62,911 nt of DNA, taken from the IMG/VR virus record IMGVR_UViG_3300045988_079349. The stretch is one strand, 5' to 3'. Shown here in pieces: positions 33,238-57,472 of this stretch; the first letter of the stretch is position 1; every line of letters starts with the position of its first letter. Origin of the DNA: a virus. Both the position numbers and the translations under genes were made by a program. Below the pieces are notes generated by a model. It saw only the letters and a list, made by a program, of their open reading frames with translations. It was not told where the DNA came from and did not search any database.

Positions 33238-33239
33238 TC

Positions 33240-33276
33240 TAAAGGGAGGACTTAATGTCCTCCCTTTTTCTTTTTA
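33240..33276 (+). terminator. intrinsic terminator
   Basis: AAGGGAGGACttaaTGTCCTCCCTT followed by TTTCTTTTT. Confidence 0.6.
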
Positions 33277-33293
33277 TAAGGAGTAATTGGAGT

Positions 33294-34730
33294 TATGGAT
33301 ATTGATATTTATGATTATGTTTAGCGTTGGTCTATTAACTATATTGTATATCACAGTAGCCATTTGAGAGAATATGGCGACGTAGAATCAGCGAATACCT
33401 TATTCAGCGCATAGTATCAATAGGCAGTAAATAAAGCATAGACCGCGGGAATTGAGGCTTAGATCTCCTCAATTCAAGAATAGATGCAGCTAAAAGCGCC
33501 TTCCGCAGCCAGTGGATTAAAGATTCTAAGTGATCTAGAGATAGGAACCCTATTAGACTCTACTCTTGATTAGATTGCCGCCGGTATTAATGAGGGTATT
33601 GAATTAGCTGGTGGATAGGTAGATTTTGAAAACTATAATACTATATTGCAATAGGTTGGAAGCTTTAATAACTTGTTATCAACTGGTACACCGGAAATAT
33701 AGAGAGTGAATGATTTCTTTAGGTTACTTATATCAGCTTTAACGAAAGCGAATATGATAAATGTTAATGTTCTTGATGCTTTAACATAGATTGGAAGATA
33801 GCTAATAGGAACTAGCTTTTAGATAGATTAGGCATAGCAAAGTTATGTTATGGCTGTTGGCAAAGGAGATATAAATATCGCAAAAGATGTAATAGATTCT
33901 TTAAACAGGGCTGTTACTCGTTTAAGTGAATAGGGATCAGTAAACTCTCGTTCTTTTGCTAATACTATTGCTTATATATTTAGAAGGGTTATTGGAAATT
34001 AGATTAGTTAGGCGATAGTTGCAGAGGGTATATCAATAGGAGTTAATACCGCGGATAGTATATTAGATAAGGTAATCGCGCAATCTGGTGGAAAATTGCG
34101 ATGGGTTGATAAAGGATAGAATAATGTCTCTAAGTCTAAAGGTACTACAAATATATTTAATAATGATACCTTTAGTTTGCAAGTAACCAAGGGCAATCAG
34201 ACTTTTAATATAGAGATAGGGACAAATGTAAATGCAAGATGGCAAAATAAGAAAATGTCTTAGAATAAAATTTCTGCTTCTTCAAGTATGAATGTTGGAG
34301 AATATTTTTCTGGTTAGCCAGAGAAGTATCTTGCTTATAATATGATTGCTCATAGATATACTGGAGCTGATTTTGAAGAATCGTTTAATAATATACGGGC
34401 TTCTGTTGCAGCGTCCTTCTTTAATTAGTGGATTCAGTCTAGTGAGTTTAGTTCATAGAAGGGTCATTTAGGATAGTTTATTATAGTTAATGGTAGAGTA
34501 TTTTCAATCTAGCGAATTATTAATAATATCTGTGATGATATTGTTAGAAATAGTGCTCATGAAGTGGTTTCTATTGGTGGAGAAGGCGCTCTGGGTAATA
34601 AGTGGTATGGCAATTCTGGAGCAAACATATTAGATGCAATCACCCGTAGTAATATAGTCAATGGAGTTATAAATAAATTAACTATTGCAGCAACTTTAAA
34701 TAATAATATACTATCTAAATACGCATATTA
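33294..34730 (+). CDS. hypothetical Gln-rich protein (~478 aa) with about 40 in-frame TAG codons
   Basis: Single frame from ATG to TAA with TAG as the only internal stop; lies between the tube and chaperone genes. Confidence 0.45.
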
Positions 34731-34794
34731 AACTTGACAATAGTTAATTTTTCTAGTATAATAAAAATATAAATGAGATAAAGGAGATTTTACA

Positions 34795-35325
34795 ATGACT
34801 TTTAAAGATTTGGGGCTTGAGCCTAAAGTTAAATATACAGAAGTAAAGGTTGGAGCAGATAAGATTTTGTCTGTGGCTAATTATCTTCCTATTGCTGATA
34901 AAACAAATCTTATTATGTTTGTCACTGATTTATCAATAGATGAGGCAACTGGCTGTTTTAGTCCAGTTAGAGTGGAGACCTATTTTGCTATTGCTATATG
35001 CAGATGGTATGGCGGAATTACTTTTGAGCCAGAAGATGTGCATGAAAATATCGCAAAAACCTATGACACTCTTGAGACAAACAGTGTAATTGATGCAATT
35101 CGTGATATTATTCCGGTGGAGGAACTATCTTTTATTGAGGATTTAGTTAAGGATACTATAAGCGATATTTCAAGATATAATAGTTCTGCGGCCGGCATTA
35201 TTCAGATGATGAATAAAAATGCTTCTGGTCTTGATACATATATTACTGATATGCTAGAAAAGATTAAGAATGGTGAAAATCTTGAAACACTATCAGTAAT
35301 TAAAGATGTGGTTGGAAAAGATTAA
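34795..35325 (+). CDS. tail assembly chaperone candidate (176 aa), TAG-free
   Basis: ORF track; immediately precedes the tape measure gene; terminator-like hairpin at about 35375-35410. Confidence 0.4.
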   Translation: MTFKDLGLEPKVKYTEVKVGADKILSVANYLPIADKTNLIMFVTDLSIDEATGCFSPVRVETYFAIAICRWYGGITFEPEDVHENIAKTYDTLETNSVIDAIRDIIPVEELSFIEDLVKDTISDISRYNSSAAGIIQMMNKNASGLDTYITDMLEKIKNGENLETLSVIKDVVGKD

Positions 35326-35435
35326 TAAATCTAATAAAATTTACAAATTAGATAGAGAATTAAAAGGCTCTTGAGAAGATATAATTCTCAAGAGCCTTAT
35401 TTGTTTTATCGTAGAGATAAAGGAGGAAAAGGACT

Positions 35436-38400: not shown

Positions 38401-41400
38401 AAAAAGGAACAGAAGAATTTGCAGAATAGATAGAAGACGCTAACAAAAAAGCTAAAGAATTAATTGAAACATATAAATTGTTTGGGCAATATAGTTATGG
38501 TTCAAACGGATAGATAGTATTTGATGAAGGAGTACTAGAGAATCTTTAGGAGCAATAGGCTAGTAATCTTAGTTCATTAGAAAGCGCCAATTATTAGACA
38601 TAGATAACTGCGTCTAATGCAAATTTGAAAGCTTTGGCTACTAGTACGATTAGAGAAACTGGACTAACCTATGGTTACTCTTATCAAGATCGTTCTGGAA
38701 ACGAGTAGGAGATGCAGCGTCTCATTTCTCATGATATGTTAGATGAATTAGCTAATAATTATTATGAGTTAATGAGCGAGGCTTCTGACGGATTTGTAAC
38801 TCTTGAGAGTGGAATTTAGCTTTCTGTCGACGCAGTTGCAGATGCGAAGGATGCATTAGAGGAATATGCCGATGCCGCAAAATCGGCGGCAGAAGAAACA
38901 GAATACTTTGCTAGCTAGATTTTAACTAATTATGTTGGACAAAATTATGAAGGTACAATAGATAGCAATGAAGATTTAATTCGATAGGCTGCAAGTAATC
39001 AAGTAGGTAATACTCAACTTTCTTCTGGAAAAACTGTAGATGAAGCATTGGCAGAAATTAATGCTGCAAATGCCAATAATGCTACTATTAAAGATTTGCT
39101 AAGAGAACTATATAATACGGATTATATGTTCTTAACCGATGAAAGATTGGGTAAGGAATACGCGGAAAAAGTTCTTGGATGGGATACTGCCTCTATTGGT
39201 TATTCTGGAGGATGGGGAAAAGGAACTCTTTCAAATGCCGCTACTGGCGAATCTGTAGAAATGACAGACTAGGCTATGCGCATTGCTTTATAGAATCTAC
39301 TTATGTAGGAGAAAATTTTAAAGCAGTATGCAGACGAAATAGAAAATAATGCTGAAGGAGCTATTGATATAGATTCTTACATTTAGGAGTTAAATGAAGA
39401 TATTAATAATATCAATACTCAATTTGGAGAGGAATTTGGTACAGCATATGCTCAAGCCTTAGCAAATGAAGGAGATATAGATTTTGTTAATTTATTAGAA
39501 CAATCTTTTTCTCCTGAATAGGTAGAAGAGCTAAAAACTAAGGTTAGTTCTGGATTGTTAGATATTCCTTAGGAGTTTCTTGATGCTTTAACTTCTTCAA
39601 TAGAAGATTATGACGCCAGTAATTATTGGGCTAATTAGCTTGAGACAAGTAAGAAAAATGCGGCAGAAATTGGTAGTATCCTTTCTTCTTACCAAAATGA
39701 AGAGGAATTAGATGAGGATTAGCTAGCCTTCTTAGATGAATTGATGGCTAAATATGAAGATTTATCTAATTTACAAGCCACAAATTAGCATGACTATCTT
39801 GAAAGATTAAGAGAGATACAAGAACAAGAAGAAAAAACGTATCTTACTGGATTAGAGGATTCTGCTAATTAGCAAAGAGAGGATATTTAGCAATTAGAAT
39901 CAGAAATAGCAAGATTAGAAGATGCTGGATATGCTCCACTAGATTTAATAGAGGAATTACAATAGAAATTATAGAAGCTTGCAGACACAGAGTATAAAAT
40001 TTAGATTGCTCTCGATACGGATTTAGCTTCTGATATTGATTAGGCATTCGGGTTAGCCAATGAAATAGAATAGCTTAAAGGATATTTGGAAGATGGCCTT
40101 GAAATAACATATGATAGAGCCTAGGAAATAATAGCGGCTGGCTATGGCGCTATGCTTACTAATGCAAGAGAAACGGCAGATAGTACTATTGAGTTAAATA
40201 GAGAAGTTGTTAATAATTTTATTGATGGTAAATAGTAGGAAATAGAAGCTGATAGATTAGCAAGAATAAAGTAGTTAGAAACTGAGAGAGAAGCATTAGT
40301 CGCTAAGCGAGATTCTCTTTATGCTGGATTAGAAGCTTTAAAATCTGGGCTTAAAGCAGAGGATGCGGCCTCTAAAGCTGCGGCACTTGCACAAGCAGCT
40401 ATTTATAAAGCTGATGCCGATTCAAAAGAAATTACAGCTGAAAAAAAGGCTGACGCAGAAGATTTAGCCAATGAAGAAATTGCTAATGATGCCGCCGCTT
40501 TAGTCGATGCTTTGGGAATAATGCATGAAACTGATGCAGAAAATTCTCAATAGGCGTATGATGATATTGAAACTGCGGCGAATCAAAGTGGAGCATCATA
40601 GGTTAGCGTTTGGAATTAGGTTTAGTTAGCAGCAGTTAAAGCATCGTAGGCAATAAAAGCTGCTTATAGCGGGCAGGAAAGTACTTATGATCCCGTGCTA
40701 TTTGAAGGACAGGATAATGTCTCCGTGGGGGCGACCAGTTCACAAACTGCTGATAATACATATGTATTTTCTAAAGCAGATGTTTAGACATTAACTGATG
40801 AAATCCTTAATGCCGCTTAGAATAATATCGAAGTATTAAATAGCGCTACAGAGCAAGCTATTGATGAAATATAGTTAGAATTGAATTCTGTTAATGCTTA
40901 GATCGGTTCTGTAGATGCTGGAATTGCGGCACTAAAAAGCGCTAATTTATCTTTAGATAAAACATAGGCTAACTTAGGTAGTGGTTCTGGCGGAGATAAC
41001 GAAGGTACAAAATATGATGCCGAGGATGAAAAAACTCTTGAAGATATAGAAGATAGATACCATGAAATAACTCGTGAGATTGAGAATTAGAATGATTTAT
41101 TGGATGATATTGGTAATAATATAGATAGAGCATATGGAGCGAAGAAATTATAGGCTTATTAGAAAGAGCTTCAAGAGTTAGAAAAACAGCAAGCTAATTA
41201 TAATAAGATGCTTGATGAGGCTGAGACTTATCTTGAGAAAGATAGATCAGAACTTCAAGGATTATTTAACAATTCTCTTATTTTTGATGAAAATGGAGAA
41301 ATTGAAGGTTATCAAGACGTTCTTCAATCTATTATTGATGATTACAATAATAACTTCTTAACCGATTATAATGCTTTCTTATTGATGTTTAGTAGTCTTA

Positions 41401-44234
41401 CTAAAGATGAATAGGAAGCTAGATAGGCGGAATATGATAGTTGGCAATTACAAAAAGAAGTTGCTGATGAATTATTCTAGGCTCGTTAGGACGCTTTAGC
41501 TCAATATGAAGAAACTCTCGATAAGATTCAAGATGTAAAAGATGAGCAAGAAGAGCTAGAAAGAAATATTGCAGATAATAGATTAAATTAGATTGAATAT
41601 AAACTTGAAGTTGCGATAGATATAAAAGATGCTAAAGATGCGGTTAATGAGCTAACAAGACAAATAGCAGAATCTTTTGGTGATGAGCTAACTCATGGAA
41701 TGGAAGTCGCTCGTATTGATAAAAACAGTATGAACGAGAACATTGAAATCATCAAGAGCTATGAAGAAGCCCTTAAAAGTTATCAGGAAGAATTAGCTAA
41801 TGCCACAGATGCGACTAATATTGATGAGATTGTAAGTAAGTTATCTGACTTACAAGGTAAAATGATTTCTACCGCAGAGGCTTTGCTTGATTGGGTAGAA
41901 GGTCTTGAAGAAATGCTACCAGATGCATTAGATGCCGCGTCAGAAAGATTTGCTGCTTTTACTGATTAGCTTGATCATAATGAATCTGTTCTAGGGCTCA
42001 TCAAAGAATTATATGCTCTTTAGGGAGTTACATATAAGACCGAAGAAGGATTTGAATAGCTTCAAGAAGTAAGCGAAGAAACTATGAAGGCTTAGGTCGC
42101 CAATGCATAGCTGAATAAACAATGGTATGACGGAATCCGTCAAGAACTATTGGAAGCTCAAGCTGCATTAGATGCATTAGGCGGAGATGAAACCGATCCT
42201 GCATATGATGGTTTAAAAGCTAATAGAGATGCTCTACTAGAAGAATTTAATGAAGCACAAGAGGCTATGTTAAGTTCCGCGCAAGCTGCTATGGAGACTG
42301 CTTAGGAGATGTATACTCAAGCTATTGAAAGAGCAGTATATGAATTTGGATAGGCTGTTTCTGGTGGAGTAGGATTAGATCTACTACAAGACAAATTCGA
42401 TCATTATATCGAACAAGAGGATAGATATTTAGATAAAGTAAATGAGGCGTATGAGGTATCTTCTTGGTATAATAAACTACAACAAGATATTGATAAAGCT
42501 ACTAACTCTAAGATGAAAGATTAGTTAAAGTAGCTGCAAGAGGAAATTGATATACGTAGAGAGAATAATACCTTATCTGAGTACGATTTAGAAATTCTCG
42601 AAGCTAAGTATAATGTTCTTTAGGCTTAGATGGCACTTGAAGATGCTCAAAATGCAAAGAATCAACTTAGATTAGTAAGAGATAGTCAAGGTAACTGGAA
42701 TTATCAATACACCGCAGATGCGAGCTAGATAGCAGATGCAGAGCAGAATTTACTTGATGCGGAGAACGAATGGTATAATATAGCAAAGCAACAGGTAGAG
42801 GATGTTACAGGAGAGATTATTTCTACTTGGCAAGAGTGTCAAGATAAGATAAAAGAAATCTATTCTGATATGACCTTGACTGATGAAGAAAGATCTGCTC
42901 GCGCGCAAGAAATTTATTCTTATTATACGCAGAAGGTTAAGGACTTAGAGAGCGAAAAACAGATCGCTATTTAGGATATGACCGAAGCCGGCAATAAAGC
43001 CTTAATTGATATGGCTATTGTTGCGGGAGATGAGGTAAGTGACTTAACTGGAATTACAAGTCAAGAAATTCAAGATATTATAGCTAATTCCGGCTCTAGC
43101 ATTATTGATTTGTTGCTATCAGATAATGAGTAGATTCAAGATATAGTAGGAAGTAATACAAAACTTATTGACCTATTTGATAACGTATTTGCGAAAGACT
43201 TAGCGAATATGACCGCTAATGCCGGCAACTTTGAAGAGTTTTTATCTAATGCAATGGATGAAGCTAGCGGAGCGATGGAGGATTATCAAACTACTGTTTC
43301 TGGAGTAGCCGATTAGACTGGAACAAGTCTTGATGATTTAAAAGATTATATCGACGATGTTTCAACTTCTACTGATTTGTGTTCTGAGGCTGGATCAAAA
43401 GCTGTTACTTAGATGTTAGAATAGATAAGCACTATTCAAGATTTAAGTCAAGAGTATTTAGATATGGCCGATTCAGTCAGAGAATATGTAAGATCACTTG
43501 AAGAAGCCGCTAGAGCTGCTGGTAACACAATAGAAAGCGCAGGAAGTATAGATAAAGATGACTTGCCTTCTTCTGATTCAAGTCAATCTTCTGATACTGA
43601 TAAAGGTAGCTCAGGCGATAGTGGTAGTGGATCTTCCAGTAGTGGAACTGGAGGAGGTAATGGAATCCCCGAAGTAGGAGATGAAGTTATTTATACTGGT
43701 GGAACTTACTATCATGATTCTTATGGCACTGATCCTGCTGGTAGACGCGGTCCAGGTAAAAAGGTTAGAATAACAAACATAGCTAAGGGTAGACCTTATC
43801 CAATCCATGTACAGTCCAATAATTCCGCTTATGGATGGCTAAAAGAAAGTTAGATAAGTGGCTTCGATACTGGAGGATATACTGGAGAATTTGATAATGC
43901 TAAATTAGCTTTCTTACATGAAAAAGAGTTAGTTTTAAATCAAGAGGATACGAAAAATATCTTGGCGGCGGTCTCTGCTATGAGAGCCTTTGGACCTAGT
44001 TTTATAGCCTCTATTGAGAAAACTCTTGACGGGAACGCACTATCTATTTCTAGTATTATGGCATCTAGATTGGGAACTAATACCTAGATTGCGCCGACAG
44101 ATAATGTGGTTTAGCCAAATATAAATATTGAGCGAGTTGAATTCCCCAATGCGACATCTTCTGATGAAATTCAAGATGCTATTCGTAGTTTGGCGGATGA
44201 TGCTACTCAATGGGCGAATAGAAGAAAAGAATAA
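35436..44234 (+). CDS. tail tape measure protein, ~2,932 aa, with roughly 100 in-frame TAG codons
   Basis: AAAGGAGG RBS then GTG. One frame stays open to a TAA when TAG is read as sense. It joins the track ORFs 37878..38153, 38169..38354, 39048..39272, 41208..41414, 41700..41969 and 43464..43853, all in the same phase. Long Ala/Glu-rich coiled coils, a hydrophobic segment (38169..38354) and a C-terminal SH3-like domain. Confidence 0.8.
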
Positions 44235-44285
44235 TAGGGGAGATTTTCTCCCCTATTATTCCCTATGAGTAAAAGGAGGAAGAAT

Positions 44286-47200
44286 ATGAATACAGCTTCT
44301 GAATCTATTTTTTAGACAATAGATATTCTTGTTGATAAAGCACTATCAAAATTAACTTATGATAAAACTGTTTCAGCAGAGATCAATAGTATCGTTAATC
44401 TTGATACTGGAGAATATAAAGTTAAATATTCTGGTAATATAGTATCTGCTTTTTCTGATGATGTAAAAAAGCAATATAAAGTAGGAGATACTGTATACGT
44501 TACCATACCTCAAGATGACTTGTCAGCAAGGAAAAGAATAGTATGTAAAACAAGTGAATAGTCGCTATCATACGGAGAGATGCTATCTTTATCTAATTCA
44601 ATAATAGAGAAAAGCCCAACCTTTGATACCATGTATGAATATGATAAAAACGCGGAAAGGAGCGTTGTAGCTGGAGCGCCTGCCGATAGTGATCTAAGTC
44701 AATAGATTATTTATGATGGTATTGAAGAGGGTTATCATGGATTATTCCAACAATACGCAAACAATAATGAACTTATTAGAATCAAGGCTTCTTTCTTGAC
44801 CACCTTCCACTGTGAGCATACAAAAGGAAATTATGGTTTAGATATATAGTTTTTCACAAAAAGTGGAGATATAGTTTCTTACAAACTAGATCTAAGCTCT
44901 TTTAATGGAGATCCATATCGCTTTTAGGTCTATAGCCCGCAATCTGTAGTCATAAAAACTCAAAAGAATTATTTAACTGGACTTAAACAGATTAAATTAT
45001 TTGAAGAAAACTTTGTCTATGATCGTTATGTAGAATCTGGTGTAGTTACAGATAAAGAGAATAGAACTGTACCTAATATTTTTGTAAAGGATATAGAGAT
45101 TCAGTTTGTTGAATAGAAAGATTTAACTGATAATTTATATTACTTAGATATATCAACCCCGCGAGGAAACTCATTCACTAACGAGATCTCTTCTCTTGAT
45201 TTGGTTGGTAGATTGATTTATTAGGGCGATAATATTATGGACGAAGAAACCTGTGAATGTAAATGGTTTGAGAGGGATGTAAGCGTTTTACTAGGGAGCG
45301 ATTTGTATGACAAAAATGCTGGGGTAGGATGGGCTCCCGTCACAGCGTCCGAGAGCAATACGCTGACACTTAATGCTGAATAGGTTGAGTATCAAAAGTA
45401 GTATAAATTGATCGTTGTATATAATGATAGCGTGACATTAAGCGCAGAAACAACGATTTATAACTTAACAAGTGACTATAGTTTTGAGTTAGATCAAACT
45501 ACGGTTGGTGAAGATATTATCATTCAAATTTAGAACAATGTAGATGATACTGTTTTAATTGGAGATTGGTATATGCTTTATCCAGATGGAAGTTATACCG
45601 CAGTAGGGTTAAAACAAAATTCTATCACTGTAACTAATTTACTGCTATATTCTTCTGTTACTTTTGTTTGCGGCGTTTATAATAAAGAGTATAGCTAGAT
45701 TATTTGTGTATTAGAACATCTTGTCACAAATAGTTCTTCCGAGGAAGATGTTACAATCACTTATAATGGAGAAGATACCTTTAGATATGATGCAAACGGA
45801 GATATAACAATAGAAGATGCTGAGAAGGAACGAACTCTTTAGGTTGTTTTAACTTGGAAAGATGGAGTTGGAACTTCTTATAAGGTTGAATGGATTGGCC
45901 CAGATGGGAAAAATATCACTAATTCAAGATATAATCCTAGTGAATCTATGATAGAAAATCTTTGGGTTGACAATAGCAATATTTTACATTATACTATTAA
46001 ATAGAAGTATAAAGTTAATTTTAATAATAATACTATCTTAGTTCGTATAGTTACTATGGATGAATAGAGATACTCTTTCTAGAAAGAGATTTTATTCTTA
46101 AAAGATGGAGATTAGGGTACTAATGGTACGACCTATGTTACTGCAATTCGTCCTTTTGATGAAAGTACCGGCCTAAAACTTTCTGGTTTGGTTCCCCTTA
46201 TCTATAGAGATGACTCATGGCAAAATACTTTACCTTTAAGATGTTATGTATATAAAGATGGAGAGCTAATTAACGACAATGGAAGCTATACATTAACCTA
46301 TAAGTGGACAGGGGTTAATGTTAATATTAGGGATAGTGCCTTGGATGACCGCAAGATAATTAGTGGAGATAATCAACTAGTGTCTACTCCTATTGGTGGT
46401 TATGTGAAGGTATAGGTTACTATTAATGATAATAAGAATAATAGAACTTATGATATTTATAGTAATTATCCTATTGATGTCGCTGTTGATTTTTCTGATC
46501 AAGAAATAGAGAGTATTGATATTAGCTCTATTCCTTCTTATATTAAATATACTGCTTCTGGAGTAAATCCCTAGTTCTATAGTAATAATATTGAATTTAT
46601 TGTCAACAAAGTTGATTAGAGCAAGAATATTACTTCTATTGTAGAAGAAATATTAACAATAGAAGAATAGGATGGTCTTTACTATTTAGAACCGGCTTCT
46701 AGCTTTATTTTTGAAGATAATAGTATTGCATTGTTAAAGTGTGAATATGAGGGAAAATGTATTTATCATCCAATTATCTTGTATCTTGACACCTATGGAA
46801 ATGAATTAATTAATGGGTGGGATGGTACATAGCTTGAAATTGATGAAGAAAATGGTCAGTATATTTTGGCACCATAGATAGGCGCAGGAGAAAAAGATAG
46901 CTTTAATCGTTTTACTGGTGTAGTAATGGGGAAAGATAGTGTCTAGTCTAAAATTGGTTTGTATGGATATAAAGCAGGAGTTAATACCTTTGGTCTAATG
47001 GAAGATGGTACAGCCTTCTTTGGATCCAAAACTGGTGGTGGGTAGATTATTATTGATGGTACCTCTGCCGAAATTTATGGAGGAGGAAATTCTTCTGGTG
47101 AAGGTGGAGACGCATCCAATGGAATGACTATTACACTAGCAGATCTTAAAGCTGATGGCTCTACAGAGGCTATTAAAATCGGTGGCGGTGTTTTCACAGT

Positions 47201-48206
47201 AAAGTATAATGGTACTGTAAATGCGGCCAATGCTGAAATTTCAGGAACTATTTATGCTTCTTCCGGCAAGATAGGTGGTACAAAAACTGGGTCTAATGGT
47301 TGGACTATTGAAACCAATAGACTGTATAGCGGTTCTGGTTCAACAAGAGTCGAATTGAATAGCCAGTCGCCTACTAATACATCTACACCTACAAATAATA
47401 ATGATTTTGCTATGTGGGCTGGTAGTGCAACTGCTTCAAGCGCTAAGTTTTCTGTCTCTAAAGGTGGATTAATTACTGCTAAATAGGGAAATATTGGAGG
47501 ATGGATTCTTTCTTCTAATAAACTTACTAGCGATAATTACAGAACCGGTATAGCAAGTTCAGGAACTTATCGTTTCTGGGCTGGAGCTAGTTCTAGCAGC
47601 ACAGCAGATAGACCTGTTTTCTCTGGTTCTTCTTATTTTTATGTTACCAGTTCAGGTGAGATGTAGTGTAAAAATGCAACGATTAATGGCTCTATTTATG
47701 CAGACGATGGCGAAATCGGCGGGTGGACTATTAGTCCAAGTAGAATCTCTGGAGGCGGAACCACTCTATATTCAAATGGTAGGATTGTATGTGAGGATTT
47801 TGAATCTGATAACGTAGATATTAGTGGAGATATTAATGCGACTACTTTAACCTGTGATAATGGCGAAATCGGCGGGTGGACTATTAGTGAAGATGGATTA
47901 GAGAATGGTACTACAAGATTGTTTAACGGCTTAGTATAGACAGAATAGGTACAAATATATTATAATGATCATGGTCGCTGGAATACTTATCTTGGATTTT
48001 TAGGATATGTACCAGGTAGAGATGATGATGGTGTTACTGACAATATTGGTATTAGGACACTTGATTAGGGATAGAGTATTATTCTTTAGTCTGCAAGAAA
48101 TATAGCTTTAAATGCTGAGGGAGCAGGTATCTGGGTAAATGCAGAAAATTTCAACATGAATGTACCAAAATCTGGATAGAAAGGTATTTATGCCTAGTTT
48201 GCATAA
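44286..48206 (+). CDS. large tail protein (~1,306 aa; distal tail/tail-associated protein with repeated GEIGGWTIS-type motifs), about 60 TAGs
   Basis: In frame with track 46188..46415 and 47124..47486; repeats KIGGTKTGSNGWTIE, GEIGGWTISPS, GEIGGWTISED. Confidence 0.55.
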
Positions 48207-48219
48207 GGAGTGATTATAT

Positions 48220-48960
48220 ATGGGTTCTGTAACCTTACACTCTCCCTCTTATTCTAGTGTTGGATAGAGATATGCTTCAATAAGTTGTACTGCGGTAGGA
48301 TGGGTATATCCAAGCGATTCTGGAACAACCACAACCGGAGATAGTAAAAATGGTTCTAGAACTACTATCTCTTATAGTAATACAGTATGGAGTTGGAGTT
48401 TTAGTGATGGAGGAACTTCTAGCTCTAAAGAACCAACTCATACCTTTACTGGTTTAACTGCGGGCAGGGCAAATACGGTAAGAGGGACGTTGAGTGCTAG
48501 ATGCACAAAAACCACTACTGTAACTAGATGGTCTACCCATAGAGAAGAGGTAGGAAAAGACGAGGAAGGAAATCCAATTTATGAAGATGTAACAACAACA
48601 ACTGGTCCGACTACATCTAGGACAACAGTTAGCTTGGGGTCTGCATCAGATAGTGTAACTGTATATACACAACCAACTGGTTTTTCTTTTGGGTGTAGCC
48701 CGGGAGATTATATAGCAGATTATGCCACCGCAGCTAACTGGAATGAATTAGCCGATTAGGTTGGTAAATATAAAAGTTGGCGCAATCAATCAAGTTAGTA
48801 TTCTTCATATGATTATTTGAAAGTTTCAAGTGGAGATTGGATAACCGCAAGCATTTATAATTCTATGGCATCTGCCTGCGGGACTTCAAGAGTTACTGCG
48901 GATGAAACCTTGATTAGTGCAGCATTATTTGAAGCATTGGCGGATGCGGTTTCGCCATAA
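48220..48960 (+). CDS. hypothetical tail protein (~246 aa), 3 TAGs
   Basis: In frame with track 48490..48759. Confidence 0.45.
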
Positions 48961-48980
48961 GAGAAAAAGGAGTTTTAATT

Positions 48981-49286
48981 ATGAAAATGTCAAACAAGGA
49001 TATTTTAGAAATAACCGAGGGATTAAGTAATATAGTTCAAGATCAATCATGCCTTCCCGCAAGTGTGTCATATTCGGTGATAAGAAATTTAAAAATTCTT
49101 TCTTCTATTGCTGAGGATATTTATAATGAGCGCAAGAAAATTATTGAAAGGTATGGAGAACAAGTAGACGATATTACTTATTCAATCCCAGAAGAGAAAA
49201 GAGACGCGGCGAATAAAGAACTAAATAACTTATTAGCTGTAAATACTAGCGTTCCATTAGCTACCTTTTCTATTGATATTTTGTAG
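48981..49286 (+). CDS. hypothetical protein (101 aa), TAG-free
   Basis: ORF track; terminator follows. Confidence 0.5.
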   Translation: MKMSNKDILEITEGLSNIVQDQSCLPASVSYSVIRNLKILSSIAEDIYNERKKIIERYGEQVDDITYSIPEEKRDAANKELNNLLAVNTSVPLATFSIDIL

Positions 49287-49337
49287 GGATATGATATTCC
49301 TTTAAAGGTTATGAATATTCTATACTTTATGGTGGAG

Positions 49338-49378
49338 GCTGACGAGGAATAAAACTCGTCAGCCTTTTGGCCAATTAT
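49338..49378 (+). terminator. intrinsic terminator
   Basis: AGGCTGACGAGgaataaaaCTCGTCAGCCT followed by TTTGG. Confidence 0.55.
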
Positions 49379-49437
49379 CTTTATTAATGATATAAGATTT
49401 TTTAAATATCTTAGATGAGAAAAAGGAGGCGTTAACT

Positions 49438-52227
49438 ATGCCAATTAGTATTTACCCGCCTACTCTGTAGAGCACATAGCCAGCGTTTCTAGCCAGTGTG
49501 AATGTATATCAAATCTATTTTACCTTACAGTCAATTACATCTTTTAATGATATAGGACATATATAGGTAAGAATAGTGCGTTAGTCGAATAATAAAAGCA
49601 TTGTTAATACAAATCAATACCCAGATGGGACAATCTATAAAGCACCCTCTGCTATTGGTTCCCTGGGCAATTAGTATTTTGTATCAATCAATAAAAATGA
49701 ATTGTTCGAATCTTGGTAGCCAGGGTATTTATATAAAGTGCAGATGCGCTTTGGAATTAATCCTATGTATACCTCGGTAGATGAATTTGCAACATGGAAA
49801 CAATAGCAAATAGATGAAGGAGCTTTCTCTGAATGGTCTACTGTAATGGTAATTAAAGCGATAGATACTCCGACTATTATTATAGAAAACGACGAGGCAA
49901 AGCGAGAAGATGTTATATCTACAGAACGAGTAGAAGCAACTTTAACACCGCTATTTATTGGCAGTTACAAGATTGAATCTAGTAGTAATGAATTATTGGA
50001 TAAATATAAATTTGATTTATACAAAGGTTCTTCGTAGGATCTCAGTGATTTAATCGAAAGCTCTGGGTGGATCTAGCATAATGGCTCTATTAATAATACA
50101 GATACTCATAGATTTAAAACAGTATTAACTAATAGTGAAGATTATACTGTTGTGTACTCTATTATTACCGTCAATGGTTATGAGGGAGAGTCTGATTAGT
50201 ATAATTTTTCTGTTAGTCGAACTTATCTAGGTGATTTAGAAGGAGTATCTATAAGAGTTGAAGATAGCGATATATATTGCAAAGAGAATGGTTGTATAAA
50301 GATTTTTTGCACAGCAAAAGATGGATTAAGTGGAAGTTATGTAATAACTAGAAGTTCAGAGAAAGATAATTATTAGATATGGGAAGATTTGAAGTATCTT
50401 AAATTTTCTAATTAGGTTTTGAACGATTCACTAATCTATACCGATTTTATTATTGAAAGCGGAATTAGATACAAATACGCTATATAGCAAGAGAACTCCG
50501 CAGGATTGCGGACTTCCTAGGTATATGAAACCTCTAACCAAGGTCGTAGTGTTGATTTTGAGCACAGCTATATTTATAGAGATGGAGTATAGTTAAAACT
50601 ATCACTCAATCAAACCTTATCCAGCTTTAAACATACCACTTTAAGAAGTAAATAGGATACTTTAGGAGATAAATACCCTCATTTAATTTAGAATGGTAAT
50701 GCTTACTATGCAGAATTTCCTATTTCTGGTTTGATTAGTTTTTAGATGGATGAATATTAGACATTCTTCTCTCTAGATGATGATGGCCTTTATTATAATG
50801 GCAAACTTGCAATCCCAGAAGATAAGTTTACTATCAAAAATGTGGTTAGAGGAAAATGTCAAGAGAGATAGACAACTCATTCAGAAGTCTCAACTAATGA
50901 GAGTAAATTATCTATTTCAACTGATTTAACAGATGATAATGTTTTCATTGAAAGAGCTTTTAGAGAAAAGGTAGAAGAATTTTTAAATGATTTTAACTAT
51001 AAATTATTTAAGTCTCCAACCGAAGGGAATATAGTTATAGGCTTGCTTAATATTTCTTTGACTCCGAATAATACGGTCGGCCGCATGCTCTATTCTTTTT
51101 CTGCTACGGCATATGAAGTATTAGAGAACACCATAGAAAATTTAAATGAAGTTAATATAATTGATATTGGTGAATTTGAGAGTTTAGCAAGCGAAGATAG
51201 AATAAATTCCTTTGGGCAGATAAGCGGAATTTATGGTCGAAATATAGACTTATACGCAAAGATAAGAGAATAGGAAGAGGTTAGCATAGGTGGAGGGTAT
51301 AAACTAAACTTAGTTTAGGTTACTGATATCCTAGTTGAACAATACCCAAAGATAGATCTAACCGCGTAGCTACTAGAATTAGAAGCTCTTAGAGCGGAAG
51401 CCGCAGGTAATGAAGAAGATACTTCTGAGTATGATAGATAGATTGAGGAATGTGAAAATTTAATTCTTGCTCTTGATGGGCCTGAATCTGCGACTATTGA
51501 AATTAATGTTAATGGTTCAAGGATCTTAGTTGCACCAGGTAGAATGTATCATTTAAGTGAGAATGTTAATTCTCTATCTCTATCTGCATCAACAGTTCCT
51601 ATTATTGTGAATTATGTTTGTCAGTTAAATTAGGTTGAAGATGTTTCAGTGGGAGTTGTTTCTGCTATTGATGCTTCTCGTATTTGGGGTTAGATTTCTG
51701 GAATATTTACAGGAACAGATGGTGTTTTAAAGTTTTATAACTATGATTATAAGAATAGTGACACATATCGCATATTTAGTAATGTTCCTGCGAATATGGA
51801 AAAATTTCTAGTTAGGGATAAACAAGGAGATATTATTGTTGATAATACGACTTTTAATCTATATAAAACGGTAAATATCTACGAGATAATAAAAGAAGAG
51901 ACACAAAAGCAAGTTGAGCTTATATATAATACACACTTTGAATTAAGTAGCGATGGACAGCTAACAGACGGAGAGATTTATTACACTTTTAGTGATATTA
52001 CTTTGTTCGATATAGAAGCAGACGAAGGAACTACTATTCTTCTTAGCTCAAATGCTGATGGAAGTAATCCTATTACTGTAAAAATCGGTCCCACAGGGAG
52101 ATATACACTTAACCCATTGGATAATATGATTAAATATATCGCTCTAGAAAGCGCTCAATTCTGTGTAATAAACTATAAGTGTTTAACAAATCAAATGCGT
52201 ATGAAGGTGGAATAGTATTATGTTTGA
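49438..52227 (+). CDS. large tail/baseplate structural protein (~929 aa), about 45 TAGs
   Basis: In frame with track 49846..50037, 51043..51273 and 51796..52215. Confidence 0.5.
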
Positions 52228-54124
52228 TTATTTAAACGATATGGAATTTCTTACTGCCCTTGATAAGTTAAACATTAAAACCCATTATGCGAAAATTATT
52301 TTGCTTTCTTTCGATGAAAAACCTATTAGAGAGATACAAGGTCGCATAACAGCAGGAAGTTTAAGTGTTAATGGTTCATCTTCAGTGCGCAGAACAATTA
52401 GTTTAACTATGCTAGCCGATGGAAATAATAGCGATATAGAGAATATAGATAACGAGATTTCGATAAACAAAAAGGTTAAAGTGTTTGTTGGATATAATAA
52501 CCCCTTAAGATCTTATTCTAGTTATGGAGATATAATTTGGTTTCCTTGCGGACTATTTGTCTTGTCTAATGCATCAATAGCAAGATCGACTTCTGGATGG
52601 ACAATTTCTATAAATGGAAAAGATAAGATGTGTTTATTAGATGGAACTGCGGGAGGTACCTTTCCAGGTTCTATTACCCTCCATGAAAGTTACATATAGA
52701 AGAATGATGGAGATATAGAGATTGTATATCCGACCATATTCCAGATTATATATGAAGCGGTAAACCACTGGGGAGGGGAAGCTATAGAGAATATAATTAT
52801 TACAGATATAGAGGAAACCTGTAAAATGTTGGTTAAGTATATTGGTGACAAACCAGTATATTTTAGTAATAATTATGAGAGTATGGATTTCTCTCCCAGC
52901 TCAGACTTCCCGCATATGGTAAGCTATGGATAGGATGCTGGATATAAAGAAACAGAATTTACATATCCCGGTGAATTGATTTTAGATGCTGGTGATACTG
53001 TAACTGCATTACTAGATAAGATAGTGGATGTTCTTGGAAATTTTGAATATTTCTATGATATAAACGGTCGTTTTATCTTTTAGGAGATAAAGAACTATCT
53101 TAATACTGGAAGCCCTTTAACTGAACTTACGCCAGCAAACTATGTAAAGAGTTATAATAATGCTAAATTCTTATATTCTTTAACCGAGCTTGATACCACG
53201 ACTGCGATAACCCGCAGTCCAAAGTTTGATAATATTAAAAATGATTTTTATGTTTGGGGTAAAAGAAAAACTACATCTGATGTAGAAGTGGACATTAGAT
53301 ACCATTTAGCTATTGATACCAAACCTATTATAGATTTGGCTGGGTATTATATGTGGGCTATTAGTGATAAAGAAACTGGACTAATAGTAAGATATGATTT
53401 TAATAATATAGCTAGTGATTACTCTGTATCTGGATATGAAACAAAATTAATCGGGTCTCCATGTGATGAGTGGCGAGAAGAGCTGTACCGTAGAGCATTA
53501 AATGCGCAGGTAACTAATAGCGTATATGATAACTACTATGATTCCGAATTAATCGCGGAATGGCGTAATTTATATGATCCATTGAATGAGAAATGGGATG
53601 AATACGATCATTGGAACCCTGATGTTTTTAACAATCCAGAAAATTTGAACTATTGGTTAGATTTTATAGATACGGGTTCAGAGATGGGAAAATATTCAAT
53701 AAATGAAATAGGCAGAAGGACTAAAGTGGTTAATGGTTCTGATATAACTTCCGTATATAATATGGAAGCCCCTGATATTATTTTTATTGAAGGACTTGAT
53801 TAGGACTTGATAGCAGAATATCGAGGGATAGGTTAGAGATTTTTTGTTCTTACTTCTGAATACTATGATTTATTTTCAATAAGCTCTACTAATGCGAGTT
53901 GTTTTGATAAGATTAGAGAAATGTTGTATTAGAATTTAAATTATAATACAACCATATCTATTACTTGCTTACCAAAGTATTATATGGAGCCAAATAATAT
54001 TCTCTATATTGAAGATAAAGATAGCGGCATTAGTGGAAATTACTAGATAACTCAGTTTACTTTGCCTCTTGCTTATAATGGAACTATGAGCATTACTGCA
54101 ACGGAAGTATTAACGAGAGTATAA
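52220..54124 (+). CDS. baseplate/tail hub-like protein (~634 aa), about 12 TAGs
   Basis: In frame with track 52220..52699 and 53288..53803; C-terminal LYIEDKDSGISGNY.ITQFTL resembles baseplate proteins. Confidence 0.5.
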
Positions 54125-54140
54125 GGAGGAGTAGGAGATA

Positions 54141-54731
54141 ATGCCAACTGTTGGTCAAGTATATTATAATGTAATAGATAATAACAGTGGTAGCTACGTC
54201 TCTAGTGGGTAGAATATATTTAGTGATATTATTGCCTAGGTAGGAGCCTCTCAATTTAATAAAGTTGGGGTATAGGCTCCTGCCGGCACAAAAATAGTTA
54301 TGAATGAATCAAAGACTATTATGGTTGGTAGAACTGGAATATATGAACTAGATGATGACATAGCTATTACTAATATGTATTTTATTAGACCTAGAAAGTA
54401 TGAAAAAGATGAAGAAGCCTCCTAGTAGGCGATTGAGTAGGGAACTGAAGGAATGTAGGCTGCGGATAAAAAACGAGCAGACGATTTGGAACAATTTTAT
54501 AAAGAAAATCCAGTTATGCCAGACCCGGATACAGATCCAGAGGGATATAGAGCTTACTGGGATTCATATAATAATATTTAGACTACCTATATAGAGGCTT
54601 ATTAGACAGCATTAAGTTTGTATAATTAGGGTGTAAACGGTATATATGTGTTACCCAATCCTGATAATATTGATGCTCCAGAGAACTATTAGGATTTGTA
54701 TAATGTTATTATTGATTTTATCTATGTATAA
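54141..54731 (+). CDS. hypothetical tail protein (~196 aa), about 14 TAGs
   Basis: GGAGGAG RBS then ATG. Confidence 0.45.
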
Positions 54732-54745
54732 GGAGGTGTCAAACT

Positions 54746-56656
54746 ATGGAAAGTTTCTATGGAGGACCTAAAGGTAGAGATTTTGATATTAAGGAAATCT
54801 TTACTAGCAAATATTAGATGGATAGAGATTTATCAAAGGGTTGGACATCTTCTATCTTCCCAGGTGATCTCGTTGTTGTATCATATGGTTTGCCAAGCGA
54901 TACAAACTATGATATTTATAAGAATGAAGATTTATAGAATTATGGGAAAAGCTATAACTCTACTCTTTGGCAAAAATGTTATAATGATAAAGATGGAAGC
55001 GGATCTGCGGGTGGCCTATACTATAAGATGATAGCTTCCATGACTGGTAATACACCAAGAATTAGCTTAAATGACACAGAAGTCTTGGATGCAGATGAAG
55101 ATCCAAACGTGGTTTGGGATAATACCGATCTAGATAGACTTTGGCTTACTTTTCAGTTACCATAGAGTTAGAATATCTAGTTAGGAGAGACTACTATTCT
55201 GGATTGTAATGAACTTCCAGAAGCGTCTTTAGACACGACCGATATAAATAATCCTAGCTTAAAGTTGTCCTTACCGCAATCTTAGGTAATTAATACTGCA
55301 TTAGTAGAATTATTAGATGTAGGTGAAAATCCAAGAGTATCTTTAGAAGTTTCAGGAGATTATTCTATCAACAAACCGGCAATTAAGTTTTATCTACCTG
55401 TATCTTAGTCATTATAGGAAGGTATTACTACAACTTTAGATGCTAATGAAAAACCTAGATTTGAAATAAATTTTGATGATATAAACAATCCAATTATTAA
55501 TTTCTTCTTGCCTCAAAGTTAGGTGATGGGAGATCCAGAAACTACGGTAGTGGGACCCGAGGAGAATCCATCTGTAGTAATGGATGATTCGAATATTAAT
55601 GCGCCAGTATTGAAATTTAGTTTACCAGAAGCGGTTAAATTTTACTATGGCGAGTTACTAGGCGAGAGAACAGAAGGAACTTACGAAGAAACTAATGATT
55701 CTTTTGTGGATTATAATGTTGGTGATTATTACATTAATGCACCAACCGGTTTTATTTATAAAGTAATCAATAAAACTGGAACCACTTGTACTTTTTAGTA
55801 TATAGCTTGTATTTAGTCTCCTCTTCCTACTATAGAAGTTACAGAATTAAAGCCATATACAGATAAAGGTTCTGAGTTTGAGCCGACAATTCCTACGGTT
55901 ACAAGGGAGTTTACTAACGAAGAACAAACTGCCTGGAAGCTAGTTTTTGGGCTGCCATCCGCGGTTAAATACACTACTTCATTTGCTTTTGTTGGAATTG
56001 ACGAAACTGGCTCTGTATCCAATGAAATTACAGCAGATGACACTATAAATATTGATTTTAAGATTCCTAGAGGATCAAAATTATACTCTGGAACTTAGAT
56101 TTCTGATTCAACAACATCTACTGTTATTGAGGGTGCGAAAGCTGGAGATTTATATTTAAATACAGAAACCGGAGATATATATGAATTAAATTCTTCTGGT
56201 ATATGGGAGAAAAATTCCGGCAATTTAAAAGGCCCTGTTGGCGAGGCTCTTAATATCGTTAAGAGCTACACAATAAATGAGACAGACACGCTAAAAGATT
56301 CTTTATAGAATGGTGTAGATTATATTGAAGAAAACTATGATGGAGAAATTAGCGCGTAGGATATTTTCTCTATTACGTGGGTAGAATATGAAACTAACCA
56401 AGAAACTTCTTACTGGTATTATAAAGCCGCAGATGGAGTGTGGGGAAGAGTCTAGCTAACTGGCGGTATTTCTAACCTTATTGATAATAGTTATAATAGT
56501 GAAGATGGTGGAGAAGTAACAAATAAAACTTACAGTATTCACTATATTAATAGCTTAATAGGTGGAACTATTACAAATAAGGATAGATAGACATATTCTG
56601 CAACATAGATTGAAGAATTACTATCTTGGGGAAGTTTTAGTGATTTAATACCTTAA
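54746..56656 (+). CDS. tail fibre / receptor-binding protein candidate (~636 aa) with repeated LP(Q)SQ beta-strand motifs, about 22 TAGs
   Basis: In frame with track 55523..55798; repeats FQLP[TAG]S[TAG]N, LSLPQS[TAG]V, FFLPQS[TAG]V. Confidence 0.5.
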
Positions 56657-56689
56657 TTTATATTTAGAGAGTATAAAGGAGGGCCTAAA

Positions 56690-57472
56690 ATGGCTTTATT
56701 TAAGATTTTTAAAGGCGCAGAAGAGGATCTTAATGATGTACCTCTTCATGAAGGATACGCCTATTTCTGCGAGGACACAGGAAATTTATTTATTGATGTA
56801 AGTAATATAGAGGGCGAACGTCTACAGGTCAATGCCTATGCTGCTCAAGTTTTAAAGAATAATGTTACTGAAATTGATATTGACGACATTTTTCTTAAAA
56901 ATATGACTGCTACTGTAGCGTAGGGTGGAACTGGACATGATACATTAACTGTTAATGCTTTGCTAGTAGGAAATGGAACAGAAGCATTAAAAATGATTGA
57001 AATTGCAGCCGGCAGTTTAGTAATCGGAAATGCGGAAAATGGTGTGGCTGGTTTACAAGGTGCTGGTGCTTTATACGCGATTACTGCGGGTGCACCTACA
57101 TTTGGTACACTTCCAATCTAGGTTGGAGGAACTGGAGGCACGACAGCCGCGCGAGCCAGAACTAATTTGGATGTATATAGCAAGTCAGAAACAGATAACC
57201 AAATTACTGGTAGCACATCTGTAGCTTATACAACCACTCTTGCCGCGGCATCATGGGTATTGAACGGAGATATGTATACATAGACATACTCTAATACTGC
57301 TTTAACTTGCGGAAAAGCGGGAAATGTGCCACCTATCATTACTTATACTTCTAATTTAGAGGAATATAGTAAAATTGATCATGCTGATGCAACTGTAGGA
57401 TCTGGAATCACTTTCTACACAAAAGATAAACCAGAAAGCGATATTGCTATTGTTATTATTGATGTAAAATAA
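56690..57472 (+). CDS. tail fibre protein (~260 aa), 4 TAGs
   Basis: Track 56690..56923 extended through TAGs; motif GGTGHDTLTVNALLVGNGT. Confidence 0.5.

What the first reader, a model, noticed from the sequence alone, without database searches (positions are those of the whole stretch)
55150..55530. Internal repeat alignment inside the fibre gene equates TAG with CAA (Gln)
The fibre gene 54746-56656 contains paralogous beta-strand repeats. Copy 1 reads TTA CCA TAG AGT TAG (L P * S *). Copies 2 and 4 read TTA CCG CAA TCT TAG and TTG CCT CAA AGT TAG (L P Q S *). The TAG at repeat position 3 in copy 1 occupies the place of CAA in the other copies. That is direct intragenic evidence that TAG decodes as glutamine. 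The first TAG in FolD also falls at the Q of the E. coli-type PASQIY motif, but Bacillus FolD has H there, so that evidence is weaker.
Basis: seen in the sequence. Interest (0 to 1): 0.7.

Follow-up and report, generated by a model that had tools for sequence, protein, structure and literature searches.

The report
Amber codon read as glutamine

Summary
ORF 54746-56656 has 17 in-frame TAG and no TAA or TGA. It contains five clearly homologous 38-41-codon tandem repeats. Their "LP" motifs read TAG-AGT-TAG, CAA-TCT-TAG, GTA-TCT-TAG, CAA-AGT-TAG and GAA-GCG-GTT.

The intragenic argument alone is weak. Position 3 is a variable column (TAG/Q/V/Q/E). By the same logic, position 5 would equate TAG with Val.

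The conclusion, TAG = Gln, is strongly confirmed by other evidence:
- Codon-level alignments with real CAA/CAG codons in orthologs. Position 5 of the repeats is a conserved Gln across 47 orthologs.
- 743 TAG columns in 29 gene families give Q 27%, E 12%, K 10%, the same profile as the known Gln codon CAG.
- In three cultured standard-code phages, every TAG column on which all three agree is Gln.

A 96-98% identical IMG/VR contig carries a tRNA with anticodon CUA outside the window. The phage is a distant relative of phAss-1 (NCBI "Caudoviricetes code 15 clade", Babkin 2023). This is a new member of a known kind, of low interest. Side observations are a diversity-generating retroelement (DGR) and a strict, clade-wide absence of TAG from the major capsid-like gene and a few other virion genes.

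The parts
54746..56656 (+). Tail-fibre-like ORF: 636 codons, 17 in-frame TAG, ends in TAA. There are only 6 CAA/CAG codons, so Gln content is 0.9% without TAG and 3.6% with it.
   Evidence: Full-length orthologs. It lies between a tail protein gene (52220-54124, phrog_1887) and a tail-fibre gene (56690-57472, phrog_1591). The AF2 model is beta-rich and elongated. There are weak BFVD matches to tail-fibre and collagen-like proteins.
55079..55663 (+). Array of five homologous 38-41-codon repeats (U1-U5), each ending in h-x-h-x-L-P-(Q/R/V/E)-(S/A)-(Q/V). In the model each unit forms a beta-hairpin.
   Evidence: (z 6-14).
55163..55165 (+). It is paralogous to CAA at 55277-55279 (U2), GTA at 55400-55402 (U3), CAA at 55514-55516 (U4) and GAA at 55628-55630 (U5).
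   Evidence: Ortholog codons at this site: AGA 23, GCT 9, TAG 5, CAA 3, CAT 2.
55169..55171 (+). TAG at U1 position 5 (aa142). This is the conserved Gln position of the repeat. The equivalent TAGs are at 55283-55285 (aa180), 55406-55408 (aa221) and 55520-55522 (aa259).
   Evidence: Ortholog codons: aa142 TAG 22, CAA 9, CAG 2; aa180 CAA 26, CAG 2, TAG 5; aa221 CAG 19, CAA 9, TAG 4; aa259 CAA 28, TAG 5.
18268..57472 (+). Late (packaging, head, tail) gene block of 27 ORFs. It is open only if TAG is read through: 309 in-frame TAG, 0 in-frame TAA/TGA, and every ORF ends in TAA or TGA.
   Evidence: Terminase-like 21307-23052 and portal 23429-25057.
17063..17893 (-). Phage-encoded FolD homolog with 7 in-frame TAG in the longest ORF. 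One TAG aligns with Q of the ASQxY motif.
26339..28698 (+). Three consecutive late genes with no TAG at all. 27048-28100 is the major-capsid-protein homolog. 31843-33237 and 34795-35325 are also TAG-free.
   Evidence: Conserved over the clade. Capsid annotation from distant homologs.

Best explanation
The window is part of a roughly 133-kb SPbeta-like gut phage that uses genetic code 15. In its late genes, and in some others, TAG is a sense codon for glutamine. TAG makes up about half of all Gln codons there (335 TAG, 253 CAA, 81 CAG).

The fibre-like gene is one ordinary example. Its shaft contains five tandem beta-hairpin repeats with the motif L-P-(Q/R)-(S/A)-Q. The conserved Gln at motif position 5 is written TAG in four copies. 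The variable position 3 is written TAG in copy 1 and CAA in copies 2 and 4.

Decoding is most likely done by a phage-encoded amber-suppressor tRNA (anticodon CUA). This tRNA lies outside the window and would be charged with Gln by host enzymes (inferred). Following published models, the TAG-containing late genes could then be translated only once that tRNA is expressed (inferred).
For: SHOWN
1. The frame is open except for TAG. There are 0 TAA/TGA in 636 codons, P about 2e-17. The same holds for the 27 ORFs of the late block on the + strand.
2. Real CAA/CAG codons in orthologs sit opposite TAG. For 116 window TAGs in 12 gene families, the nearest ortholog with a sense codon has Gln in 79 cases (CAA 60, CAG 19). 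This 3:1 ratio equals the phage's own CAA:CAG usage and is not a mutational-neighbour pattern.
3. Across 743 TAG columns in 29 families, the other residues are Q 0.27, E 0.12, K 0.10. This matches the profile of the known Gln codon CAG (Q 0.21, E 0.12, K 0.12). It does not match the profiles of the Glu, Lys, Asn, Tyr, Leu, Ser, Trp or Arg codons used as controls. Q is enriched 9-10 fold over background.
4. Three cultured standard-code phages were compared: Enterococcus phage H1, Alicyclobacillus KKP_3916 and Geobacillus E3. Every window-TAG column on which all three agree is Gln: TerL 66, 224, 381 and g20123 265. Portal 177 and 299 are QQ. With 14 relatives that have no in-frame TAG, Q takes 46% of 69 positions, and 19 of the 28 columns that are at least 80% conserved.
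5. Counting TAG as Gln restores normal Gln content. The fibre goes from 0.9% to 3.6%.
6. Contig IMGVR_UViG_3300045988_075249 is 96-98% identical in nucleotides to the window over about 40 kb. It encodes a canonical 75-nt tRNA with anticodon CUA (L107 2409-2483; Rfam tRNA 60 bits).
7. The related phage phAss-1 was published as TAG->Gln with three tRNA-Sup-CTA genes (PMC10607447).

INFERRED
- The tRNA is charged with Gln. G73 and an unpaired 1:72 pair resemble the tRNA-Gln identity elements of E. coli (my own knowledge).
- Recoding serves temporal control of late genes (model of bioRxiv 10.1101/2021.08.26.457843).
Against: - No tRNA of any kind lies in the window itself or within 10 kb of the fibre gene in 56 relatives. 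The suppressor is therefore shown only in a near-identical contig.
- Simple sequence similarity does not assign the tRNA(CUA) to an isotype. The best matches, about 73%, are to tRNA-Trp.
- Many TAG columns are variable. Q is the plurality residue at 27%, not a majority, although this is what a true Gln codon gives in the same test.
- There is no proteomic evidence.
- The public protein database already translates these genes with Q at TAG, so protein-level alignments alone would be circular. Only the codon-level counts are independent.
Confidence: 0.9

Rival explanations
1. TAG is a sense codon for a different amino acid, such as Glu, Lys, Tyr, Trp, Ser, Leu or pyrrolysine. ARAGORN labels the tRNA 'Pyl' from its anticodon.
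For: - The tRNA(CUA) isotype is not settled by sequence similarity.
- ARAGORN prints tRNA-Pyl.
- Some relatives carry a 91-nt tRNA(CUA) with a long variable arm, the shape of Ser/Leu/Tyr tRNAs.
- In the repeat itself, TAG at position 5 is paralogous to Val.
Against: - The substitution profile of TAG matches CAG/CAA and none of the control codons for E, K, N, Y, L, S, W or R.
- Conserved TAG columns in standard-code relatives are Gln in 19 of 28 cases. E has 3, D 2, N 2, G 1 and Y 1.
- S, L, Y and W are not enriched in TAG columns (0.3-0.8 times background).
- The Pyl label reflects only the anticodon. The tRNA is an ordinary cloverleaf.
Confidence: 0.04
2. There is no dedicated decoding. The TAGs are leaky stops read through at low level by host near-cognate tRNAs, or they are true stops in decaying or fragmented genes.
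For: - No suppressor tRNA lies in the 62.9-kb window.
- Pfam and PHROG find nothing for the fibre ORF.
- The PHROG terminase matches are split into two half-length families, as if such genes were fragments.
Against: - There are 309 in-frame TAG and not one TAA or TGA in 12,874 codons of 27 consecutive ORFs.
- Essential genes (terminase 14 TAG, portal 11, the 2932-codon ORF 103) could not be made by leaky readthrough.
- Full-length orthologs are conserved across TAGs in dozens of genomes.
- A tRNA(CUA) is present in the same species.
- The split PHROGs are better explained by families built from ORFs called with the standard code.
Confidence: 0.02
3. The conclusion TAG = Gln is right, but the intragenic TAG/CAA coincidence is itself a chance match in a variable column and carries no information.
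For: - Position 3 reads TAG, Q, V, Q, E in the paralogs. In orthologs of copy 1 it reads R 23, A 10, TAG 5, Q 3, H 2.
- The sense residues opposite all TAGs in the repeat alignment are Q2, V2, E1, N1, G1, Y1.
- The two Q share ancestry and are not independent.
Against: - The family-wide motif is LP-(Q/R)-(S/A)-Q, so Q is a preferred residue at position 3. U2 has Q in 37 of 46 orthologs and U4 in 8 of 46.
- Two Q among eight residues is nominally unlikely at a 2.4-3.4% background frequency (my estimate, P about 0.03, not corrected for shared ancestry).
Confidence: 0.3

Closest known systems
Genetic code 15 (TAG->Gln) phages of gut microbiomes: crAss-like, Lak, and the Garnet/Amethyst clades. 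Sources: Yutin 2021 PMC7886860; Borges 2021 bioRxiv 10.1101/2021.08.26.457843; Peters 2022 PMC9523058, which validated the recoding by mass spectrometry.
   Same: In-frame TAG is concentrated in structural and late genes. TAG aligns with Gln in homologs. The phage encodes a tRNA(CUA). The predicted hosts use the standard code.
   Different: The lineage is different: SPbeta-like, with probable Clostridia hosts. In this window TAG also occurs in non-structural genes (FolD, reverse transcriptase). TAG is strictly excluded from the major capsid-like gene and a few neighbouring genes. No release factor or aminoacyl-tRNA synthetase gene was seen in the window.
phAss-1 / proposed Phassvirus and its wider group (Babkin et al. 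2023, PMC10607447; NCBI node 'Caudoviricetes code 15 clade')
   Same: - Homologous major capsid protein (51% aa identity) and TerL (42.5%).
- Genome size about 133-148 kb.
- A roughly 3000-codon ORF full of TAG. In phAss-1 this is annotated as the tape measure protein. Here it was not tested, and the assignment rests on size and position.
- tRNA-Sup(CTA) present.
- The capsid gene is free of TAG.
   Different: - Divergence is at genus level or deeper.
- GC is about 35% against 44.5%, closer to the paper's divergent members ctOa11 and ctUes22, which could not be compared here.
- The window's species shows one 75-nt tRNA(CUA) in the stretch seen, whereas phAss-1 has three.
- The fibre gene studied here is not one that the paper describes.
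Standard-code SPbeta-like phages of Bacillota (Enterococcus phages H1 and EF1, Geobacillus virus E3, Alicyclobacillus phage KKP_3916)
   Same: The packaging and head gene order is syntenic. TerL is 48-50% identical.
   Different: They have no in-frame TAG. They serve here as the independent reference showing Gln at conserved TAG columns.
Classical amber suppressor tRNA-Gln(CUA), supE of E. coli (own knowledge)
   Same: A tRNA with anticodon CUA that inserts Gln at UAG. The phage tRNA has G73 and an unpaired 1:72 position, as tRNA-Gln does in E. coli.
   Different: In the phage this is the normal way of reading hundreds of codons, not a mutant allele. The charging enzyme is unknown.

Membership tests
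Code-15 (TAG->Gln) recoded phage | Conserved essential genes are interrupted only by in-frame TAG, and the frame is otherwise free of stops | tested here: met
   309 TAG and 0 TAA/TGA in 12,874 in-frame codons of 27 ORFs. The fibre gene has 17 TAG.
Code-15 (TAG->Gln) recoded phage | TAG positions align with Gln (real CAA/CAG) in homologs, including standard-code ones | tested here: met
   Q is enriched 9-10 fold. 79 of 116 nearest-ortholog codons are CAA/CAG. All four columns on which the three cultured phages agree are QQQ. The profile equals that of CAG.
Code-15 (TAG->Gln) recoded phage | A suppressor tRNA with anticodon CUA is encoded by the phage | tested here: met
   It is not in the window. 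It is present in a contig 96-98% identical to the window: L107 2409-2483, 75 nt, canonical cloverleaf.
Code-15 (TAG->Gln) recoded phage | The suppressor tRNA has glutamine identity | tested here: inconclusive
   G73 and a 1:72 mismatch fit tRNA-Gln. Overall similarity is ambiguous, about 73% to tRNA-Trp. No isotype-specific model was available.
Code-15 (TAG->Gln) recoded phage | TAG is not used as a terminator of recoded genes | tested here: met
   All 33 ORFs listed end in TAA (26) or TGA (7). This is partly true by construction, because the ORFs were delimited by TAA/TGA.
Code-15 (TAG->Gln) recoded phage | Gln is found at TAG sites in the proteins | not testable with these tools
   This needs virion or metaproteome LC-MS/MS, as in PMC9523058.
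phAss-1-like / SPbeta-like group ('Caudoviricetes code 15 clade') | Homologous TerL, portal and major capsid protein, and syntenic late genes | tested here: met
   Major capsid protein 51% and TerL 42.5% identical to OQ749652. Order of terminase, portal and head genes as in relatives.
phAss-1-like / SPbeta-like group ('Caudoviricetes code 15 clade') | Membership of the proposed genus Phassvirus (over 70% genome nucleotide identity) | tested here: not met
   No hit above 60% protein identity in the GenBank phage collection. GC is 35% against 44.5%.
Phage tail fibre | Located in the tail or baseplate module | tested here: met
   It lies between phrog_1887 (tail protein) and phrog_1591 (tail fibre) genes.
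Phage tail fibre | Recognisable fibre domain or fold | tested here: inconclusive
   No Pfam or PHROG hit. AF2 pLDDT 75, pTM 0.25, a beta-hairpin repeat model. PDB gives no match with E <= 0.001. BFVD gives weak matches to tail-fibre and collagen-like proteins, E down to 2e-8 but TM <= 0.14.

The most novel reading that the evidence does not exclude
In this clade TAG may not be merely a third Gln codon. It could act as a graded throttle on translation.

A small set of virion genes is kept completely free of TAG and uses CAG-rich, standard-code-compatible codons. These are the major capsid protein homolog, its two neighbours and the gene at 31843-33237. Across 20-35 recoded relatives they have 0-6 TAG among 131-476 Gln codons.

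In most other late genes, 15-55% of Gln codons are TAG. This group includes the 2932-codon ORF (probably the tape measure protein), the baseplate and fibre genes, terminase and portal.

TAG density could therefore set stoichiometry or timing through limited suppressor-tRNA capacity. I assume, without testing it, that the TAG-free genes are the most abundantly made virion proteins.
Probability: 0.3. Interest if true: 0.45.

Novelty: new member of a known kind. Interest (0 to 1): 0.2.

Why it matters
In practice, these genes must be translated with table 15, or terminase, portal, the 2932-codon ORF and the fibre gene fall into fragments. The split PHROG terminase families suggest this has already contaminated reference libraries.

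In biology, the finding adds one more lineage to the known TAG->Gln gut phages: SPbeta-like, with probable Clostridia hosts. It does not change the picture. The codon-level ortholog test used here, with control codons as calibration, is a clean way to assign a reassigned codon without circular use of pre-translated databases.

Tried and rejected
- Pfam and PHROG scans of the fibre ORF gave no hit.
- A Foldseek search of the AF2 model against the PDB found nothing significant. BFVD gave only low-TM matches to fibre and collagen-like proteins.
- Protein-level alignment to 120 database homologs shows Q at TAG columns. I rejected this as evidence because those proteins were evidently translated with code 15. 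It was replaced by codon-level counts from DNA loci.
- I tried to assign the tRNA(CUA) isotype by similarity to 79 other phage tRNAs and to E. coli tRNA-Gln. The result was ambiguous.
- I tried to walk beyond the window with the look-up of encoding contigs.
- I searched for the suppressor next to an NrdD homolog, as in phAss-1. This returned only close phAss-1 relatives. A DNA pattern from the anticodon arm succeeded instead.
- tRNA scans of the window and of 56 fibre loci found none.
- Rfam at gathering threshold on the five tRNA loci found only tRNAs and one tmRNA, and no ribozyme.
- PHROG scans of the TAG-free genes and of the left-hand small genes were mostly uninformative.
- The pyrrolysine reading was rejected, because the ARAGORN label reflects only the anticodon.
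- The idea that the class-II-shaped tRNA(CUA) of some relatives inserts Ser or Leu found no support. Q is still the top residue opposite their TAGs, and S and L are not enriched. The signal is weaker there, however (Q 0.22-0.35).

Full report
**1. The observation**

ORF 54746-56656 (+) translates to 636 codons with 17 in-frame TAG and a TAA stop.
- 55157 TTA CCA TAG AGT TAG
- 55271 TTA CCG CAA TCT TAG
- 55508 TTG CCT CAA AGT TAG

- 55394 CTA CCT GTA TCT TAG
- 55622 TTA CCA GAA GCG GTT
- two doubtful copies at 55952 and 56063

Frame 1 has no TAA or TGA in 636 codons, while the other frames have 23 and 69. From base composition, P is about 2e-17.

**2. Are the repeats homologous?**

Yes, for five units.
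- DNA repeats are diverged (72-75% identity) but in phase, with spacings of 237, 228, 123 and 114 nt.
- With TAG masked as X, the 40-residue units anchored on the LP motif (aa 112-306, nt 55079-55663) give pairwise Smith-Waterman z-scores of 6-14. None of 300 shuffles reaches the observed score. Units 6 and 7 are marginal.
- In an AlphaFold2 model (pLDDT 75, pTM 0.25), each unit is a pair of beta-strands flanking the LP-x-S-x turn.

**3. How strong is the intragenic argument?**

It is weak on its own.
- Position 3 after LP reads TAG, CAA, GTA, CAA, GAA in the five copies.
- Position 5 reads TAG, TAG, TAG, TAG, GTT.
- Position 8 reads TAG, N, TAG, G, Y.

Over all TAG-containing columns, the sense residues opposite TAG are Q2, V2, E1, N1, G1, Y1. 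The argument points in the right direction, but it could not carry the conclusion alone.

**4. Independent test in the same gene**

The fibre protein has more than 200 database homologs. Those proteins already carry Q at TAG positions, so they were evidently translated with code 15 and are circular as evidence.

I therefore fetched DNA: 51 IMG/VR loci and 5 GTDB loci. The orthologous ORFs there have 0-16 TAG. I then aligned codons. Counts at repeat position 5:

| Window residue | Ortholog codons |
|---|---|
| aa142 | TAG 22, CAA 9, CAG 2 |
| aa180 | CAA 26, CAG 2, TAG 5 |
| aa221 | CAG 19, CAA 9, TAG 4 |
| aa259 | CAA 28, TAG 5 |

Orthologs at 81% identity read LP*SQ LPQSQ LPVSQ LPQS* where the window reads LP*S* LPQS* LPVS* LPQS*. 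An ortholog with no TAG at all (L039) reads LPQSQ in copy 1.

More distant ones have AGA. The motif is therefore L-P-(Q/R)-(S/A)-Q, and position 5 is the informative one.

**5. Test across the window**

The whole + strand block 18268-57472 is open only if TAG is read through. It has 309 in-frame TAG and no TAA or TGA in 12,874 codons.

- *Tail-side families.* In 12 families, 408 TAG columns have Q at 24.2% against a 2.4% background (9.9-fold). E, R and K follow at 1.7-1.9 fold. The nearest ortholog with a sense codon opposite a window TAG has Gln in 79 of 116 cases (CAA 60, CAG 19). This is the phage's own CAA:CAG ratio of 253:81, not the pattern expected from single-base neighbours of TAG.
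- *Packaging and head families.* In 17 families obtained through the terminase, 335 TAG columns give Q 30% against 3.4%.
- *Calibration.* I ran the same statistic with known codons treated as unknown. Over all 743 columns, TAG gives Q 0.27, E 0.12, K 0.10. CAG gives Q 0.21, E 0.12, K 0.12. Codons for E, K, N, Y, L, S, W and R give quite different profiles.

**6. Standard-code references**

Three cultured phages were used: Enterococcus phage H1, Alicyclobacillus phage KKP_3916 and Geobacillus virus E3 (TerL 48-50% identical).
- At every window-TAG column where all three agree, the residue is Gln: TerL 66, 224, 381 and g20123 265.
- Portal 177 and 299 are QQ.
- With 14 relatives that have no in-frame TAG, Q takes 46% of 69 positions. 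It also takes 19 of the 28 columns that are at least 80% conserved.

One TAG aligns with Q of ASQ(T/V)Y in two bacterial structures and with N in the human enzyme. The other four aligned TAGs fall in variable positions.

**7. Mechanism**

There is no tRNA in the window or near the fibre gene in relatives. A pattern from the anticodon arm of the phAss-1 suppressors found a tRNA(CUA) on IMGVR_UViG_3300045988_075249 (L107 2409-2483).
- That contig is 96-98% identical to the window over about 40 kb.
- The tRNA is a canonical 75-nt cloverleaf with encoded CCA, G73 and a C1/U72 mismatch.
- It scores 60 bits on the Rfam tRNA model.
- Its isotype is not decided by similarity.

That it is charged with Gln is inferred from the codon evidence. 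That late genes wait for its expression is the published model and was not tested here.

**8. What is known**

The major capsid protein homolog is 51% identical to that of phage phAss-1 (OQ749652). NCBI files phAss-1 under 'Caudoviricetes code 15 clade'. Babkin et al. 2023 (PMC10607447) describe several features of that group:
- TAG->Gln recoding
- three tRNA-Sup-CTA genes
- a tape measure gene of about 3150 codons
- divergent recoded relatives with GC 33-35%
- standard-code relatives such as Enterococcus phage EF1

TAG->Gln in gut phages has been validated by mass spectrometry in crAss-like phages (PMC9523058). The window's phage is thus a new, deeper-branching member of a known kind.

**9. 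Verdict**

Novelty is low. Side observations are listed separately: a DGR at 58.6-62.7 kb, clade-wide exclusion of TAG from the capsid-like gene and a few other virion genes, and class-II-shaped tRNA(CUA) in relatives.

Noticed in passing
window 58616-62656 (minus strand): RT 58616-59833; template repeat 60142-60243; variable repeat 60865-60966 at the 3' end of gene 60851-62656: A diversity-generating retroelement (DGR). It comprises a reverse transcriptase (RVT_1) and a 102-nt template/variable repeat pair at 80% identity. Every mismatch falls at an adenine of the AAC-rich template. The target protein has Big_3 and DUF6273 domains. The RT and the target gene both contain in-frame TAG (6 each).
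   Followed up: partly
window 26339-27028, 27048-28100, 28141-28698, 31843-33237, 34795-35325: Five genes inside the recoded late block have no TAG at all: 0 of 40 Gln codons, where about 50% is expected. They also have higher GC (0.34-0.42). For four of them (not 34795-35325) the avoidance is conserved in 20-35 recoded relatives: TAG 0/335, 6/476, 4/140 and 0/131 of Gln codons, with CAG strongly preferred. One is the major capsid protein homolog. The pattern suggests that TAG is avoided in the most abundantly made virion proteins.
   Followed up: partly
L080 4235-4325, L124 7911-8001, L129 2965-3055; phAss-1 L058 12442-12532: Some relatives carry a 91-nt tRNA(CUA) with a long variable arm (class II shape, G73). 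The window's species has the 75-nt form. Gln is still the top residue opposite TAG in those lineages (0.22-0.35), and Ser and Leu are not enriched. What this tRNA is charged with remains open.
   Followed up: partly
window 21307-23052: The terminase-like protein matches two half-length PHROG families of unknown function: phrog_15503 over residues 5-218 and phrog_24618 over residues 353-578. It matches the annotated terminase family only faintly. These families were probably built from ORFs cut at TAG by standard-code gene calling.
   Followed up: no
window 17063-17893 (minus strand): A phage-encoded FolD (methylene-THF dehydrogenase/cyclohydrolase) lies just upstream of the late block. It has 7 in-frame TAG. 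It is found in only 28 of the 83 related loci fetched through the terminase.
   Followed up: partly
window 1-17000: The left part holds small genes, mostly on the minus strand and mostly readable in the standard code. Several standard-code ORFs there end in TAG. GC at 4-16 kb is 0.41-0.46, against 0.29-0.40 in the late block. PHROG hits include an antitoxin-like protein (9363-9842) and a weak match to a deoxyribonucleotidase/polynucleotide kinase-like family (8460-8924).
   Followed up: partly
L052, L053, L054 (GTDB MAG contigs of 148,971, 147,780 and 68,403 bp): Fibre orthologs occur on contigs binned into Oscillospiraceae, Eubacterium and Clostridia MAGs. The two contigs of about 148 kb are the size of a whole phage genome of this group. 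They may be phage genomes binned with the MAG rather than prophages, so host assignment from them is weak.
   Followed up: no
L080 1296-1636: A relative of this phage group encodes a full-length tmRNA (Rfam 75 bits) inside its tRNA array.
   Followed up: no
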